From a virus (Duplodnaviria; Caudoviricetes): a stretch of 64,000 bases of DNA. Made by a program: the position numbers and the translations under genes. Under the pieces are notes generated by a model, which searched no databases, was not told the origin of the DNA, and saw nothing but the letters and a program-made list of their open reading frames with translations. Of this stretch, positions 27,289 to 30,094 are shown piece by piece. The stretch is from the IMG/VR virus record IMGVR_UViG_2856626968_000003, positions 1-64,000 of that record; one strand, written 5' to 3'. The first letter of the stretch is position 1. Each line of letters starts with the position of its first letter.

Positions 27289-27663
27289 ATGCACCGCAGC
27301 CCGTACGAGACATGGGTCGAGATCAAGTTCATCGACGAGTTCATCGTTCTTCCCGAGCACATCGCACTCCTGCGCCGGGGCTGCGCCTCTTGGGTCGGGG
27401 ACGACTGGCGCGGAGCCCCAGGACTAGACCCCAAACGTCCGTTCCGTAACAGCGACGTGTACGGGGACATCGCGGCGATCGTGGACGGCCGTGAGGTCTA
27501 CGGCCACGACGACGAGCAGGTCTCCGATGCGGACAGGGCACGCTACGACCGACTGTTCGCCGAATGCGTGCTCGCGCTACAGATCGTGTTGGAGACGGGC
27601 TCGTTCGAGCCTGGGCGCTACGTCCTGGCCGGCCTTCCGGGGCGATGGCAGCGCGCCAAGTAG
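27289..27663 (+). CDS. Hypothetical protein
   Basis: GAGGA RBS; LDPKRPFRNSDVYGDIAAI motif. Confidence 0.7.
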   Translation: MHRSPYETWVEIKFIDEFIVLPEHIALLRRGCASWVGDDWRGAPGLDPKRPFRNSDVYGDIAAIVDGREVYGHDDEQVSDADRARYDRLFAECVLALQIVLETGSFEPGRYVLAGLPGRWQRAK

Positions 27664-27728
27664 CCCCATCCACCATCATAACGATCTGATCTCGGCATGG
27701 CCGTGTGTCCGTGGTGTCCGAAATCAAC

Positions 27729-27763
27729 GTGTGAAATCCACGTCCACTCGCTAACGTGGAAAT
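27729..27763 (+). promoter_or_regulatory. Putative promoter of the Y-RNA/Ro60 operon
   Basis: TAACGT -10-like hexamer at 27752-27757, ending 7 nt before the first RNA stem; CCACGT/ACGTGG inverted repeat. Confidence 0.4.
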
Positions 27764-27875
27764 CAGTTCATCGGGCCCGGAGTGGGCACGGGTCGAATGG
27801 GCGTCGGTTATCTCTGGTATAGATTCTCCCGGCGCTGTCTTACACATCCGTACCGACTCCCGGCCTGATGAACTG
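27764..27875 (+). ncRNA. Y RNA-like unit 1 (no tRNA module)
   Basis: Ends pair (CAGTTCATCGGGCC/GGCCTGATGAACTG); CACGGGTCGAA...GTCGGTTA and ACATCCG motifs. Confidence 0.8.
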
Positions 27876-28040
27876 GTCAGATCTGGTGCCAGCACGGGTC
27901 GAAAGCTCGTCGGTTACCACTTCTAATGGGGTTGTCGCGGGTTCAAATCCCGCCGCAGGTTCGCCTGTGTAGCTCAGTTCGGCTAGAGCGCCTAAAACCC
28001 GGTGAGCGGCACCATATCCGTGCCGGCTCCAGATCTGATC
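27876..28040 (+). ncRNA. Y RNA-like unit 2 (YrlA-type, permuted tRNA module)
   Basis: GTCAGATCTGG/CCAGATCTGAT closing stem; T arm GCGGGTTCAAATCCCGC, UUCG-capped acceptor-like stem, then D arm TAGCTCAGTTCGGCTAGAGC. Confidence 0.88.
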
Positions 28041-28042
28041 GT

Positions 28043-28184
28043 TCGTCATCCCGGCCGGTGGCACGGGTCGAATCCATGTCGGTTATCGCAGGTTCGATTC
28101 CTGTCGGCCCCCCGCGCGGGGCCGACGCCCAGTTGGCGGGCACCCGGCCGGACCCCACATCCGTGCCATCGGCCGGGATGACGA
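28043..28184 (+). ncRNA. Y RNA-like unit 3 (YrlA-type)
   Basis: TCGTCATCCCGGCCG/CGGCCGGGATGACGA stem; T arm GCAGGTTCGATTCCTGT; reduced D arm GCCCAGTTGGCGGGC. Confidence 0.85.
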
Positions 28185-28191
28185 GCCCCCA

Positions 28192-28335
28192 GGGGAGAGC
28201 GGGTCGAAGTCACGTCGGTTATCGGGAGCCGGGTACGCAGGTTCGAATCCTGCCGCCCTGCACTATGCGGGGCGTCGTCTAGTGGCCCAGGACACCGGCT
28301 TAAACACCGGCAGGCACCACCACATCCGCTCTCCC
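28192..28335 (+). ncRNA. Y RNA-like unit 4 (YrlA-type)
   Basis: GGGGAGAGCGG/CCGCTCTCCCC stem; T arm GCAGGTTCGAATCCTGC; D arm GTCTAGTGGCCCAGGAC. Confidence 0.85.
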
Positions 28336-28340
28336 CCCAT

Positions 28341-28383
28341 CCCTCCCACATCCGCCACTCCGGCGGGTCGAACACACGGAGGC
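28341..28383 (+). promoter_or_regulatory. Strand-swapped Ro-binding hairpin beside the Ro60 RBS
   Basis: ACATCCGCC-ACTCC-GGCGGGTCGAA hairpin, flanked by CCTCC and the GGAGG RBS. Confidence 0.6.
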
Positions 28384-28387
28384 CGCC

Positions 28388-30094
28388 ATGCCGCGTGACC
28401 CCCTCGCGTCCATCACCACCCACGCCACCCCGCAGACCCAGCGCATCCCCGGCCGGACCGACCAGGTCCGCAACGCCGCCGGCGGCTACGTCTACCCCAA
28501 GGACACCTGGACCCGGCTCGAGGACTTTCTCATCCTGGGCACCACCGGCGGCACCTACTACGTCGGCGAGGACAAGCTCACCGCCGAGAACGCGGGCCTG
28601 CTGTTTCAGGCCATCGCCGAGGACGGCCCGCGCGTCGTGCAGCTGCTCACCGACATCTCCACCGCGCGGCCGCCGCGCGCGCCGAAGAACCGGCCCGCGC
28701 TTTTCGCGCTGGCGGCATGTCACGCCAAGGGTGACGCGGCGACCAGGCAGGCCGCGAAGGACGCGCTGCGGAAGGTCGCCCGGACCACGGACCATCTCAG
28801 CACGTGGTTCGGCTACCTGAAGAACCTCGGGGGCAAGCAGACAAGCCGGGGTACGGCGCCCGTGGTTGGCTCCGCCCTGCGGAACGCGATCAGCGGCTGG
28901 TTCCTGGCGGCTGACGTCGACGACGTGGCGTTCCGGGCGTGCAAGGCGATGCAGCGGAAGACCCCGAACGGTGAGGCGTTCCACCTACGGGACGCCCTGC
29001 GTATCGCCCATCCCAACCGCCGTCGCGGCGCCGGGTCGCGACAGCTGCTGGACGCGCTGGACCGCCGTGTCCTGCTCGGCTGGATCACGGGCAACGTGCC
29101 TGACGACTTTGCCCGCGATGAGCTGCCTGTTGTGGACAAGTTCCTCACCGCCAAGGCCGTCACGACGCCCGAGCAGGCGGTCCGCATCGTGACCGAGGCC
29201 CGGGTGCCGTGGGAGTTCCTCCCCGACGCCATGCTGCGCGAGGCGATCGTGTGGGACGCCCTGGTGGACACGATCGGCATGACCGCCCTGCTCCGCAACC
29301 TCGCGCGGATGACCCGGCTCGGCACGCTCAAGCCGCTCGGCGACGCCACCCGGCGCGCCGTCGCCCGGCTCACCGACGCCGGCGCCGTCCACCGGGCGCG
29401 GATCCACCCCATGGACGCCTGGCTCGCCCTGCGCGTCTACGCCTCCGGCCGCTCTCAGCCCAACCCGCGTGCCGACGTCCACACCTGGAAGCCGGTCCCG
29501 GCGATCCTGGACGCCCTGGAGGAGACCTACGACCTGGCGTTCGGCACCGTCGAGCCATCCGGCAAGCGGCTGCTGGTCGCCGTCGACTCCTCCGGCTCCA
29601 TGAGCGGTACCCACTACACCATCGGCCCGGTCATCGTGGGCGGTTCGCCGATCGGCAGCCCGTACGAGGTCGGCTGCGCGATGGCCGTCACGCTCGCCCG
29701 GATCGAGAAGGGCAACGTCCACGTCATCGACGTCGACACCACCGTGCACACCTCCAAGGTGACCCCGCGGACCAACCTCCGCGAGATCGCATCCTGGCGG
29801 CCATCCGGCGGCGGCACGGACCTGTCCCTGCCCTTCGCCTACGCCCAGCGCGAGCGCCTCGAGGTCGACGGGTTCGTCGTCTTCACCGACAACGAGACCT
29901 GGGCCGGCCGTTCCCACCCCTCTCAGGCCCTGACCACCTACCGCGGCTCGATCAACGCGGGCGCCCGCACGATCGTGGCGGCGATGACCGCGACCGGCCA
30001 CAGCATCGGCGACCCGCACGACGACGGCGTGCTCAACATCGCCGGGATGGACGCCTCGCTGCCCTTGGTGGTGAACGGCTTCATCCGCGGATAG
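28388..30094 (+). CDS. rsr: Ro60 / TROVE domain RNA-binding protein with C-terminal vWA
   Basis: QVRNAAGGYVY, RLEDFLILGTTGGTYY, MTALLRNLARMT, ARIHP, AVDSSGSM, GGTDLSLP, FVVFTDNETWAG. Confidence 0.95.
   Translation: MPRDPLASITTHATPQTQRIPGRTDQVRNAAGGYVYPKDTWTRLEDFLILGTTGGTYYVGEDKLTAENAGLLFQAIAEDGPRVVQLLTDISTARPPRAPKNRPALFALAACHAKGDAATRQAAKDALRKVARTTDHLSTWFGYLKNLGGKQTSRGTAPVVGSALRNAISGWFLAADVDDVAFRACKAMQRKTPNGEAFHLRDALRIAHPNRRRGAGSRQLLDALDRRVLLGWITGNVPDDFARDELPVVDKFLTAKAVTTPEQAVRIVTEARVPWEFLPDAMLREAIVWDALVDTIGMTALLRNLARMTRLGTLKPLGDATRRAVARLTDAGAVHRARIHPMDAWLALRVYASGRSQPNPRADVHTWKPVPAILDALEETYDLAFGTVEPSGKRLLVAVDSSGSMSGTHYTIGPVIVGGSPIGSPYEVGCAMAVTLARIEKGNVHVIDVDTTVHTSKVTPRTNLREIASWRPSGGGTDLSLPFAYAQRERLEVDGFVVFTDNETWAGRSHPSQALTTYRGSINAGARTIVAAMTATGHSIGDPHDDGVLNIAGMDASLPLVVNGFIRG

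What the first reader, a model, noticed from the sequence alone, without database searches (positions are those of the whole stretch)
28341..28390. Strand-swapped Y-RNA mimic in the Ro60 leader: candidate translational autoregulation
Seen: between unit 4 and the start codon the two conserved Y-stem strands reappear in reverse order as a mini-hairpin, ACATCCGCC-ACTCC-GGCGGGTCGAA (28348-28372). It is flanked by CCTCC (28342-28346), which can pair with the GGAGG Shine-Dalgarno (28378-28382). Inference: excess Ro60 binds this mimic and locks the RBS, so protein level tracks free Y RNA, as in ribosomal-protein operon mimicry. I do not know of this being described for Ro60.
Basis: partly seen in the sequence, partly recalled or inferred. 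Interest (0 to 1): 0.85.

Follow-up and report, generated by a model that had tools for sequence, protein, structure and literature searches.

The report
Ro60 gene leader mimics Y RNA
Just upstream of a bacterial Ro60 gene sits a small RNA hairpin that copies the site where Ro60 is thought to grip its partner Y RNAs, and the same layout recurs in many distant bacteria and phages, which suggests that the protein limits its own synthesis.

Summary
At 28348-28372 the two conserved strands of the four upstream Y RNAs reappear in swapped order as a hairpin. It ends 5 nt before the GGAGG ribosome-binding site of a Ro60 (TROVE + vWA) gene.

It is conserved. A covariance model finds it in 56 of 81 related actinobacterial Ro60 leaders. 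The core is nearly invariant, the loops vary, and the hairpin always lies 2-9 nt from the Shine-Dalgarno sequence. In 151 genomes of the family it occurs at most once per genome, and 9 of 10 hits abut a Ro60 start.

A sequence-independent detector finds the same layout (hairpin, then G-N-C-G-A-A with a bulged C, then the ribosome-binding site) in about nine further distant Ro60 lineages. These include Streptomyces phages and 13 of 74 distinct viral-contig leaders, where shuffled leaders average 0.54. Their stems are unrelated and covary. In several of them the Y RNAs lie elsewhere, so the hairpin is not an array remnant.

Best reading: a cis Ro60-binding operator that gives translational feedback. 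Binding and repression are untested. The CCTCC anti-Shine-Dalgarno "lock" is not general.

I found no description of this in the papers I could search; the two main reviews were not held. Earlier notes of this scan raised similar ideas on other DNA.

The parts
27752..27757 (+). Candidate -10 element (TAACGT) about 8 nt before unit 1. Inferred start of a transcript that runs through the Y RNAs, the mimic and rsr.
   Evidence: a TANNNT hexamer sits in the same place before unit 1 in the six congeners (TAACGT, TAATGT or TAGCGT). The consensus sigma-70 scan found no promoter in 27500-28500. This is inference only.
27763..28335 (+). Array of four Y-RNA-like units, roughly 27763-27876, 27877-28040, 28041-28186 and 28192-28335. 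Each has a basal stem with 5' strand ..CGGGTCGAA.. and 3' strand ..A(C/T)ATCCG..; units 2-4 carry tRNA-like inserts.
   Evidence: Searches give the motif positions. One search gives sub-threshold YrlA hits on units 2 and 3. folds unit 4.
28330..28347 (+). Pyrimidine tract. It includes the 3' end of unit 4's basal stem and CCTCC (28342-28346), which can pair with the Shine-Dalgarno sequence.
   Evidence: Searches show the pairing predicted with unit 4 present. One search shows it is not above the composition control and is absent in several homologues.
28348..28356 (+). 5' arm of the mimic hairpin (ACATCCGCC), the same sequence type as the 3' strand of the Y RNA stems.
28357..28361 (+). Loop (ACTCC). 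It varies in sequence and length among homologues.
   Evidence: By my reading of those rows, many homologues have UUCG, CUCG or GCAA tetraloops.
28362..28372 (+). 3' arm (GGCGGGTCGAA), the same sequence type as the 5' strand of the Y RNA stems. It contains GUCGAA, which fits the GNCGAA motif with a bulged C.
   Evidence: The motif definition comes from Chen et al. 2014, passages read.
28378..28382 (+). Shine-Dalgarno sequence GGAGG, 5 nt after GUCGAA.
28388..30094 (+). rsr, the Ro60 gene (568 aa; TROVE + Ro60 vWA domains).
   Evidence: phrog_850 RNA-binding protein, 7.1e-56.

Best explanation
The hairpin is a cis-acting operator in the rsr mRNA leader. It re-creates the basal helix plus the G-N-C-G-A-A element through which Ro60 is thought to grip its Y RNAs. 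Its topology is circularly permuted: a loop closes the end where a Y RNA has its termini, and the CGAA side runs straight into the Shine-Dalgarno sequence. Inferred mechanism: the Y RNAs and rsr are made from one transcript. Newly made Ro60 first fills the Y RNAs. Free Ro60 then binds the mimic, 0-9 nt from the Shine-Dalgarno sequence, and sterically keeps the 30S subunit off. Ro60 output would then track the amount of unbound Y RNA. Shown here: the sequence, the fold, conservation, covariation, exclusive association with Ro60 starts, and recurrence in distant lineages. Inferred: Ro60 binding, the sign of the effect (repression) and co-transcription.
For: (1) The hairpin has the same strands as the Y stems, in swapped order.
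(2) Conservation. All 6 congeners (Ro60 74-81% identical) keep both arms exactly, while the loop and the spacer differ. The strict regex finds it in 49 of 81 loci. Model R1 finds it in 56 of 81, plus 2 further congeners. Of cells in the stem, 99.8% are paired and 4 of 8 pairs never vary; there is one A-U to G-C double change with a G-U intermediate.
(3) Position is fixed. In 58 leaders the Shine-Dalgarno core starts 2-9 nt (median 5) after GUCGAA. The start codon, located in 57 of them, lies 12-21 nt after it.
(4) Specificity. In 151 family genomes, 10 have a hit, one each, and 9 of these abut one of the 14 Ro60 genes.
(5) Recurrence with different sequence. L121 (Ro60 36% identical) has CAUGCCCGG-AUA-CCGGGCCGAG next to its Shine-Dalgarno sequence, matching its own Y RNAs (AUGCCCG/CGGGCCGA). 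All 6 Streptomyces phages examined have AUGCCC-loop-GGGCCG(A/G)A abutting or overlapping the Shine-Dalgarno sequence.
(6) The generic detector hits 13 of 74 distinct IMG/VR leaders. Reversed leaders give 0, reverse complements give 0, and shuffles average 0.54 with a maximum of 3. Background is 0.020 per 80 nt.
(7) In 30 representatives, 5 of 7 pairs show changes on both sides, and the covariation score is 0.724 against 0.339 for shuffles, with 0 of 500 shuffles reaching it.
(8) Positive leaders fall in about 9-10 separate Ro60 lineages.
(9) The hairpin is not tied to an adjacent Y array. ORFs separate it from the Y RNAs in Moab and StarPlatinum. By my reading, apparent coding sequence lies directly upstream in L163, L167 and L206. 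The recognisable Y RNA of L148 lies downstream of the gene.
(10) Published support for feasibility: a minimal stem-bulge-stem RNA with CGAA binds a phage Ro60 with Kd 16.6 nM, and each CGAA point mutant binds 3-4 fold worse (PMC12135203, passages read). Ro60 is said to contact mainly the GNCGAA strand (PMC4201824, passage read).
Against: No binding, toeprint, reporter or RNA-end data exist; no RNA run was listed. Many Ro60 leaders lack the element: 25 of 81 actinobacterial loci by the covariance model, 61 of 74 distinct viral leaders, 5 of 6 class-level or other-family loci, Gordonia phage Cashline and Mycobacterium phage Myrna. It is therefore dispensable. The core barely varies within the main clade, so covariation there is thin. 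The cross-lineage alignment was picked by a detector that demands pairing, so its high paired percentage is by construction. A loose phage pattern (GCC-N4-7-GGGCCGR) occurs 3-11 times per roughly 130-kb phage genome, and the reversed control gives 0-12. Under the GNCGRA setting the reverse complement of 16 of 81 actinobacterial leaders also scores, because GGCGGA in the stem fits the motif by accident. The motif lacks the final G of GNCGAA-N0-1-G in this window. Whether Ro60 tolerates the permuted topology is unknown.
Confidence: 0.62

Rival explanations
1. It is a Ro60-bound 5' boundary or stabiliser. After the Y RNAs are cut out of the precursor, the hairpin, with or without Ro60 on it, blocks 5'-to-3' or endonucleolytic decay of the rsr mRNA. 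The effect of Ro60 would then be positive or neutral rather than repressive.
For: In the actinobacterial loci the hairpin lies directly after the last Y RNA, within what is probably one precursor. In M. smegmatis the Y RNAs are processed from a single precursor upstream of rsr (PMC4201824, passage read). The stem is stable and GC-rich and often has tetraloops.
Against: This does not explain why the element hugs the Shine-Dalgarno sequence, with an offset of -3 to +9 nt in every lineage, or why the Shine-Dalgarno sequence lies inside the hairpin in L162/L164. It also does not explain the lineages where the hairpin follows an ordinary ORF rather than a Y RNA.
Confidence: 0.17
2. It is a structural hairpin that has nothing to do with Ro60 binding, for example a U-less terminator or attenuator between the Y RNAs and rsr, an RNase III site or a generic translation-initiation structure. 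The likeness to the Y stems would be inherited or accidental.
For: The stem is GC-rich in actinobacteria. Small GC hairpins followed by CCGR are not rare in the phage genomes. A 71-nt leader context has an unremarkable folding energy (z = -0.62).
Against: No terminator-like site was found in 27500-28500. The unpaired GNCGAA tail and the 5' CA are conserved, although a pure hairpin does not need them. AT-rich viral versions keep G-N-C-G-A-A while the stem sequence changes completely. Each lineage's mimic resembles its own Y RNAs. Hits are confined to Ro60 starts.
Confidence: 0.08
3. It is a relic of a decayed or fused Y RNA unit, without a function of its own.
For: The strands are those of the neighbouring array. 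The hairpin shares the GCGG/CCGC variant with unit 4. Internal deletions of the last unit occur in L017 and L038.
Against: Both arms are kept exactly while the loop and the flanks drift. The element is present where no Y RNA adjoins it. It recurs in about 9-10 lineages.
Confidence: 0.03
4. It is a free-standing minimal fifth Y RNA, a short sRNA cut out of the leader, that occupies Ro60 without recruiting an effector.
For: It carries the Ro60-type helix but no tRNA-like module. A minimal CGAA hairpin binds a phage Ro60.
Against: The motif end is 0-9 nt from the Shine-Dalgarno sequence and sometimes overlaps it, so excising the element would cut the translation initiation region. The strand order is the opposite of every described Y RNA.
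Confidence: 0.05

Closest known systems
Autogenous translational operators that mimic the protein's main RNA ligand: E. coli thrS operator (tRNA-Thr anticodon-arm mimic next to the Shine-Dalgarno sequence) and ribosomal-protein leaders such as S8, S15, L1 and L20 (named from my own knowledge, not from a call)
   Same: A copy of the protein's normal RNA binding site sits in its own mRNA at the translation initiation region. The predicted logic is competition between the abundant ligand (here Y RNAs) and the operator.
   Different: The protein is Ro60, an RNA quality-control ring protein for which I found no such control in print. The mimic is circularly permuted relative to the ligand. It appears to have arisen or been kept in many separate lineages with unrelated stems. 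Binding and repression are untested.
Bacterial and phage Y RNAs (YrlA/YrlB, Yrn1; Rfam RF02553; Chen et al. 2014, PMC4201824)
   Same: It has the same basal helix and GNCGAA motif as the four Y units 20-600 nt upstream. It lies on the same strand, next to rsr.
   Different: The strand order is swapped, so the motif is on the 3' arm. There is no internal loop and no tRNA-like effector module. It is 25 nt rather than about 110-145 nt. No Rfam match covers it. It is part of an mRNA leader.
Minimal 'Yrl2 mimic' RNA of Thermus phage phiLo (PMC12135203)
   Same: It is a short stem-bulge-stem RNA with CGAA, and that RNA suffices for nanomolar Ro60 binding in vitro (passages read).
   Different: That RNA is a laboratory truncation of a normal-topology Y-like RNA. 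No role in the Ro60 mRNA was discussed there: 0 occurrences of 'autoregulat' and of 'mRNA'.
pnp leader autoregulation of PNPase, the nuclease partner of Ro60 (named from my own knowledge; the paper appeared only in the listings)
   Same: An RNA-decay factor controls its own mRNA through a leader hairpin.
   Different: That mechanism rests on RNase III cleavage and decay, not on mimicry of a partner RNA.

Membership tests
Y RNA / YrlA (Rfam RF02553) | Reaches the family's Rfam gathering score | tested here: not met
   No match at gathering thresholds in the window. No match of any family over 28340-28390 at E up to 10. No match at the mimic positions of 13 other loci.
Y RNA / YrlA (Rfam RF02553) | GNCGAA motif on the 5' strand of a stem formed by the RNA's two ends | tested here: not met
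   The motif GUCGAA is present but on the 3' arm of a hairpin that is closed at the 'terminal' end.
Y RNA / YrlA (Rfam RF02553) | Large internal loop or tRNA-like effector module | tested here: not met
   The loop is 5 nt here and 3-10 nt in all but one of the homologues. ARAGORN and Rfam find nothing tRNA-like in it.
Y RNA / YrlA (Rfam RF02553) | Encoded beside a Ro60 gene on the same strand | tested here: met
   (9 of 10 model hits abut a Ro60 start).
Autogenous translational operator by molecular mimicry | Lies in the regulated gene's own leader, at or next to the Shine-Dalgarno sequence or start codon | tested here: met
   The Shine-Dalgarno sequence starts 2-9 nt after the motif in 58 actinobacterial leaders. 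The offset is -3 to +6 nt in other lineages.
Autogenous translational operator by molecular mimicry | Resembles the protein's primary RNA ligand in sequence and structure | tested here: met
   The arms are identical in type to the Y stems of the same locus. Mimic and Y RNAs differ together between lineages.
Autogenous translational operator by molecular mimicry | The protein binds the operator | not testable with these tools
   No RNA-protein prediction or assay is available. The only indirect support is phiLo Ro60 binding a minimal CGAA hairpin.
Autogenous translational operator by molecular mimicry | Binding lowers translation of the gene | not testable with these tools
   No expression data; no RNA run was listed.
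Intrinsic terminator / attenuator | GC-rich hairpin followed by a U run | tested here: not met
   0 terminator-like sites in 27500-28500. The hairpin is followed by CGAACACACGGAGG.

The most novel reading that the evidence does not exclude
Ro60 proteins across bacteria and phages are sequence-specific translational repressors of their own mRNA. A circularly permuted minimal Y-RNA mimic at the ribosome-binding site, gained or retained in at least nine separate lineages, would let the cell or phage match Ro60 output to free Y RNA. It would also define the smallest natural Ro60 recognition element: a short helix, a bulged C and GAA.
Probability: 0.5. Interest if true: 0.8.

Novelty: new variant of a known kind. 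Interest (0 to 1): 0.72.

Why it matters
Ro60 and its Y RNAs have been studied for decades, in lupus autoimmunity, RNA quality control and PNPase targeting. In the papers I could search I found nothing on how their stoichiometry is set. A natural minimal Ro60 site placed on the ribosome-binding site would give a simple, testable feedback circuit. It would add a new example of regulation by RNA mimicry outside ribosomal proteins and tRNA synthetases. It would also provide a compact natural probe for what Ro60 recognises. The recurrence in many phage Ro60 genes suggests that dosage control matters during infection too. It further raises the question of whether Ro60 represses other mRNAs that carry such hairpins.

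Tried and rejected
Anti-Shine-Dalgarno lock. I computed pairing probabilities for 58 leaders. The mean is 0.52, against 0.47 for shuffles of the same 16 upstream letters, and the window gives 0.28 against 0.46. I rejected it as a general or specific feature and kept it as a possible accessory, because it does appear in the fold that includes unit 4.

RNA evidence. No RNA holder was listed for window:27700-28900.

Searches that gave only noise. The 9-mer CGGGTCGAA occurs 250 times in the genome against 132 for the control. The relaxed regexes gave 49 and 36 hits against 11 and 12 for the controls. The generic detector on the whole genome gave 244 hits, mostly in coding sequence. By my reading of the listed rows, only the rsr leader combines an AYAUCC arm, a Shine-Dalgarno sequence and an ATG. 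The look-alike at C60:102050 lies inside a lipoprotein-like ORF. I therefore found no second target in this genome.

Loose phage pattern. It occurs 3-11 times per phage genome, with controls at 0-12. On its own it is not specific, so the phage case rests on position, loop variation and a covarying closing pair.

Leaders with no mimic seen. Gordonia phage Cashline, Mycobacterium phage Myrna, and L122-L125 and L008.

Alternative pairing between unit 4 and the leader arms. I considered it because both share GCGG/CCGC. I did not pursue it, because the fold with unit 4 keeps both structures separate.

Papers. Searches listed nothing on Ro60 or Rsr control through its own leader. In PMC4201824 'autoregulat', 'leader' and 'UTR' occur 0 times. 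In PMC12135203 'autoregulat' and 'mRNA' occur 0 times. The reviews PMC10870794 and PMC6542706 and Green et al. 1998 (PMC1369656) are not held. Supplements are closed, and the supplementary figures and tables of Chen et al. 2014 could bear on prior description. The novelty claim is limited accordingly.

Tools not used. Complex prediction, structure prediction, the search for homologous proteins and the search of protein representatives were not used, because none addresses RNA-protein binding.
Full report
What is there. The ORF at 28388-30094 (+) encodes a 568-aa Ro60 (Rsr) protein. It matches Pfam vWA_Ro60 at 4.2e-40 and TROVE at 1.4e-20, and phrog_850 'RNA-binding protein' at 7.1e-56. Upstream, 27763-28335 holds four tandem Y-RNA-like units. 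Their basal stems share the 5' strand ..CGGGTCGAA.. and the 3' strand ..A(C/T)ATCCG... Units 2 and 3 give sub-threshold YrlA hits of 41.2 and 25.8 bits, against a gathering score of 69. Between unit 4 and the start codon the sequence reads CCTCC (28342-28346), ACATCCGCC (28348-28356), ACTCC, GGCGGGTCGAA (28362-28372), CACAC, GGAGG (28378-28382), CCGCC, ATG. The 29-nt hairpin folds at -11.2 kcal/mol with z = -2.76. Its 3' arm ends in GUCGAA. That fits GNCGAA, the motif that Chen et al. 2014 proposed as the Rsr recognition element of bacterial Y RNAs and likened to the GGUCCGA contacted by Xenopus Ro60 (PMC4201824, passages read). Compared with a Y RNA the helix is circularly permuted. A loop closes the end where a Y RNA has its 5' and 3' termini, and the CGAA side continues into the Shine-Dalgarno sequence.

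Chance. In the window's own 9.3-Mb genome the pattern ATCCGC-N3-14-GCGGGTCGA occurs once, here. The reversed control pattern also occurs once. One occurrence alone would therefore prove little; position and conservation decide.

Conservation among relatives. By the record titles of identical loci the genome is a Sphaerisporangium. Ro60 is patchy: 7 of 20 genomes of the genus, 14 of 151 of the family and 6 of 401 of the class. All six congeners with an intact gene (74-81% identical) keep ACATCCGCC and GGCGGGTCGAA letter for letter. Their loops differ (ACTCC, GCAA, GCTCC, GCAC, ACCC, GGACC), and so does the spacer to GGAGG.

Of 81 loci, namely the window plus the best 80 of 503 relatives in genome contigs (Nonomuraea, Streptosporangium, Actinomadura, Microtetraspora, Actinospica and others), 49 match CAYATCCGY..RCGGGTCGA in the last 110 nt. 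A covariance model built on these (R1) gives 60 hits at E <= 0.005 in 83 sources. I dropped two. L069 has its hit 925 nt upstream of the intact gene. L031 was aligned only through a 35-nt insertion. That leaves 58 hits, which is 56 of the 81 plus two further congeners.

On that alignment 99.8% of cells pair and 4 of 8 pairs never vary. One pair shows A-U, G-U and G-C, and one shows U-G and C-G. The core is therefore conserved as sequence, like the Y stems themselves, while the loop is free. By my reading of the rows, many loops are UUCG, CUCG or GCAA tetraloops. The Shine-Dalgarno core begins 2-9 nt (median 5) after GUCGAA in these 58 leaders. The start codon, located in 57 of them, lies 12-21 nt after it.

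Specificity. R1 hits 10 of 151 evenly drawn genomes of the family, once each. Nine of the ten hits end at the start of one of the 14 Ro60 genes found in the same sample. The tenth is G135 (E = 0.004). It is a look-alike hairpin plus GGAGG plus ATG in a genome where no Ro60 was found. Five Ro60-bearing genomes in the sample have no hit.

The same layout elsewhere, with other sequences. L121, from another actinobacterial family with Ro60 36% identical, has CAUGCCCGG-AUA-CCGGGCCGAG followed by GGAAGGGG and AUG. Its own Y RNA uses AUGCCCG/CGGGCCGA. All six Streptomyces phages I opened (Moab, Faust, StarPlatinum, Tomas, Anedea, MulchMansion; Ro 31-35% identical) have AUGCCC-loop-GGGCCG(A/G)A abutting or overlapping the Shine-Dalgarno sequence. 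Their loops vary, and the closing pair covaries between A-U and U-A. Their Y RNAs lie 400-800 nt upstream, behind one or two annotated ORFs.

I then wrote a sequence-independent detector. It asks for a hairpin with a loop of 3-12 nt whose 3' arm runs into G-N-C-G-R-A. G, N and the second G must be paired, the C bulged, and at least 3 more pairs must follow. The hairpin must lie within -60 to +20 of the expected start. Background over all other positions of all loci, on both strands, is 0.020 per 80 nt (362 hits in 1.47 Mb). Hits are 43 of 81 actinobacterial leaders, 4 of 8 phage-database leaders and 16 of 80 IMG/VR leaders, the last being the best 80 of 214 candidates. After removing duplicates, 13 of 74 IMG/VR leaders score. 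Reversed leaders give 0, reverse complements give 0, and 200 shuffles average 0.54 with a maximum of 3.

The viral instances have unrelated stems. L155 reads UACUUCAGUAA-UAG-UUACUGAAGUCGAA-U-AAGGAG. L160 reads UGCUCGUGG-GUU-UCACGAGCCGAA-U-AAGGAG. L167, L163, L148, L171, L199 and L206 are further examples. In L162/L164 the Shine-Dalgarno sequence lies in the loop and 3' arm, and AUG follows GUCGAA directly. The offset from the motif to the Shine-Dalgarno sequence is -3 to +6 nt.

In an alignment of 30 representatives, 5 of 7 pairs show changes on both sides (43 cells). The covariation score is 0.724 against 0.339 for shuffles, and 0 of 500 shuffles reach it. Because the detector demands pairing, the 96.2% paired figure is by construction. 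The informative facts are the enrichment at Ro60 starts and the A-U/G-C alternation at the pair next to the bulged C.

On a FastTree of 173 of 175 Ro60 proteins (two translations shorter than 350 aa were dropped), the 80 positive leaders need at least 24 changes of state. They fall in about 9-10 separate lineages. No Rfam family matches any of these hairpins.

Not an array remnant. In L148 the recognisable Y RNA lies downstream of the Ro gene. By my reading, L163, L167 and L206 show apparent coding sequence directly upstream of the hairpin. In the Streptomyces phages annotated ORFs intervene.

Mechanism. The best reading is a cis operator bound by Ro60. It would sit so close to the Shine-Dalgarno sequence that a roughly 60-kDa ring protein would exclude the 30S subunit. 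Y RNAs would compete for the same surface. The gene would then be repressed only when Ro60 exceeds free Y RNA, which is the logic known from ribosomal-protein operons and thrS (named from my own knowledge). A TANNNT hexamer precedes unit 1 in all six congeners, and there is no room for a promoter between unit 4 and the hairpin. One transcript carrying four Y RNAs, the operator and rsr is therefore likely, though this is inference. In M. smegmatis the upstream Y RNAs are processed from one precursor. That a minimal CGAA stem can suffice for binding is shown for a phage Ro60, with Kd 16.6 nM and CGAA point mutants binding 3-4 fold worse (PMC12135203, passages read). Binding to this permuted form, and the sign of the effect, are untested.

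Results against, and limits. The element is missing from 25 of 81 close loci, from most viral loci, and from Cashline, Myrna and L122-L125. It is an option, not a rule. The loose phage pattern is not specific on its own. Under the GNCGRA setting 16 of 81 actinobacterial leaders also score on the reverse complement, because GGCGGA in the stem fits the motif. The related loci are not independent samples. The CCTCC/GGAGG pairing is predicted when unit 4 is folded in. Across 58 leaders, however, pairing of the Shine-Dalgarno sequence with the upstream tract is no better than for shuffled tracts (0.52 against 0.47). It is absent where the flank is not pyrimidine-rich. I treat it as an accessory of some loci.

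Novelty. Five full-text searches and term look-ups in the two most relevant held papers found no description of Ro60 control through a Y-like leader. The two main reviews and Green et al. 1998 are not held, and supplements are closed. Earlier AI notes of this scan proposed similar leader elements for Ro60 or Ro60-like genes on other DNA (e1-5843629, e1-6037295, e1-5751493). I did not test those notes. IMG/VR holds a 74%-identical locus with the same hairpin (L128), which fits a mobile cassette.

Noticed in passing
L069:529-1500 (Nonomuraea sp. NPDC049750): The mimic hairpin, Shine-Dalgarno sequence and the first ~35 codons of Ro60 (MARDPLAAVSTVATPQSQPIPGQTQVKNAAGGYVW) run into an ORF with a GIY-YIG-like start (..FYVGKT..). 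A second, complete Ro60 gene with an unrelated leader follows. It looks like replacement of rsr by a cassette associated with a homing endonuclease.
   Followed up: partly
L208:600-680 (G135:C4, about 120197-120254): A mimic-like hairpin (CAUGUCCGCC-CAGU-GGCGGGCCGA) followed by GGAGG and ATG, in a genome where no Ro60 was found at E <= 1e-20. It could be a relic of a lost rsr, an operator driving another gene, or chance (R1 E = 0.004).
   Followed up: partly
window 27733-27766: An inverted repeat, GAAATCCACGT..ACGTGGAAAT, overlaps the candidate -10 element (TAACGT, 27752-27757) just before Y unit 1. It is shared with L003. Four other congeners instead share GGTAGCGTTG(C/T)AT there. This may be an operator for transcriptional control of the Y-rsr operon.
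   Followed up: no
L007 / L011 (G013:C1, about 6669509-6670839): In one congener the Ro60 gene is broken. Residues 166-568 and 108-172 match in different frames, the first ~107 residues were not found, and there was no R1 hit.
   Followed up: no
L017:1440-1470 and L038:1420-1470: The last Y unit appears internally deleted. Its GGGGAGCGGG 5' strand sits almost directly beside a 3' strand or beside the mimic, while the mimic itself is intact.
   Followed up: no
IMG/VR leaders such as L145, L150, L159, L166, L204 (-40 to -10 of the start): In many loci without a mimic, the 3' strand of the last Y RNA (..ACUUGCCC..) lies only about 15-30 nt upstream of the Shine-Dalgarno sequence. Ro60 bound to an unprocessed last Y RNA could therefore also sit near the ribosome-binding site.
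   Followed up: no
L121:3224-3481 (-) and L171:996-1067: Bacterial or viral Y RNAs give near-threshold hits to the nematode stem-bulge RNA family RF01656 (37.7 and 34.6 bits against a gathering score of 38).
   Followed up: no
L118:825-852 (Streptomyces phage Anedea): Its mimic variant (UUGCCUU-AGAA-AGGGCCGGU) is followed by AGUAAAAAUG with no obvious Shine-Dalgarno sequence, unlike the other five Streptomyces phages.
   Followed up: no
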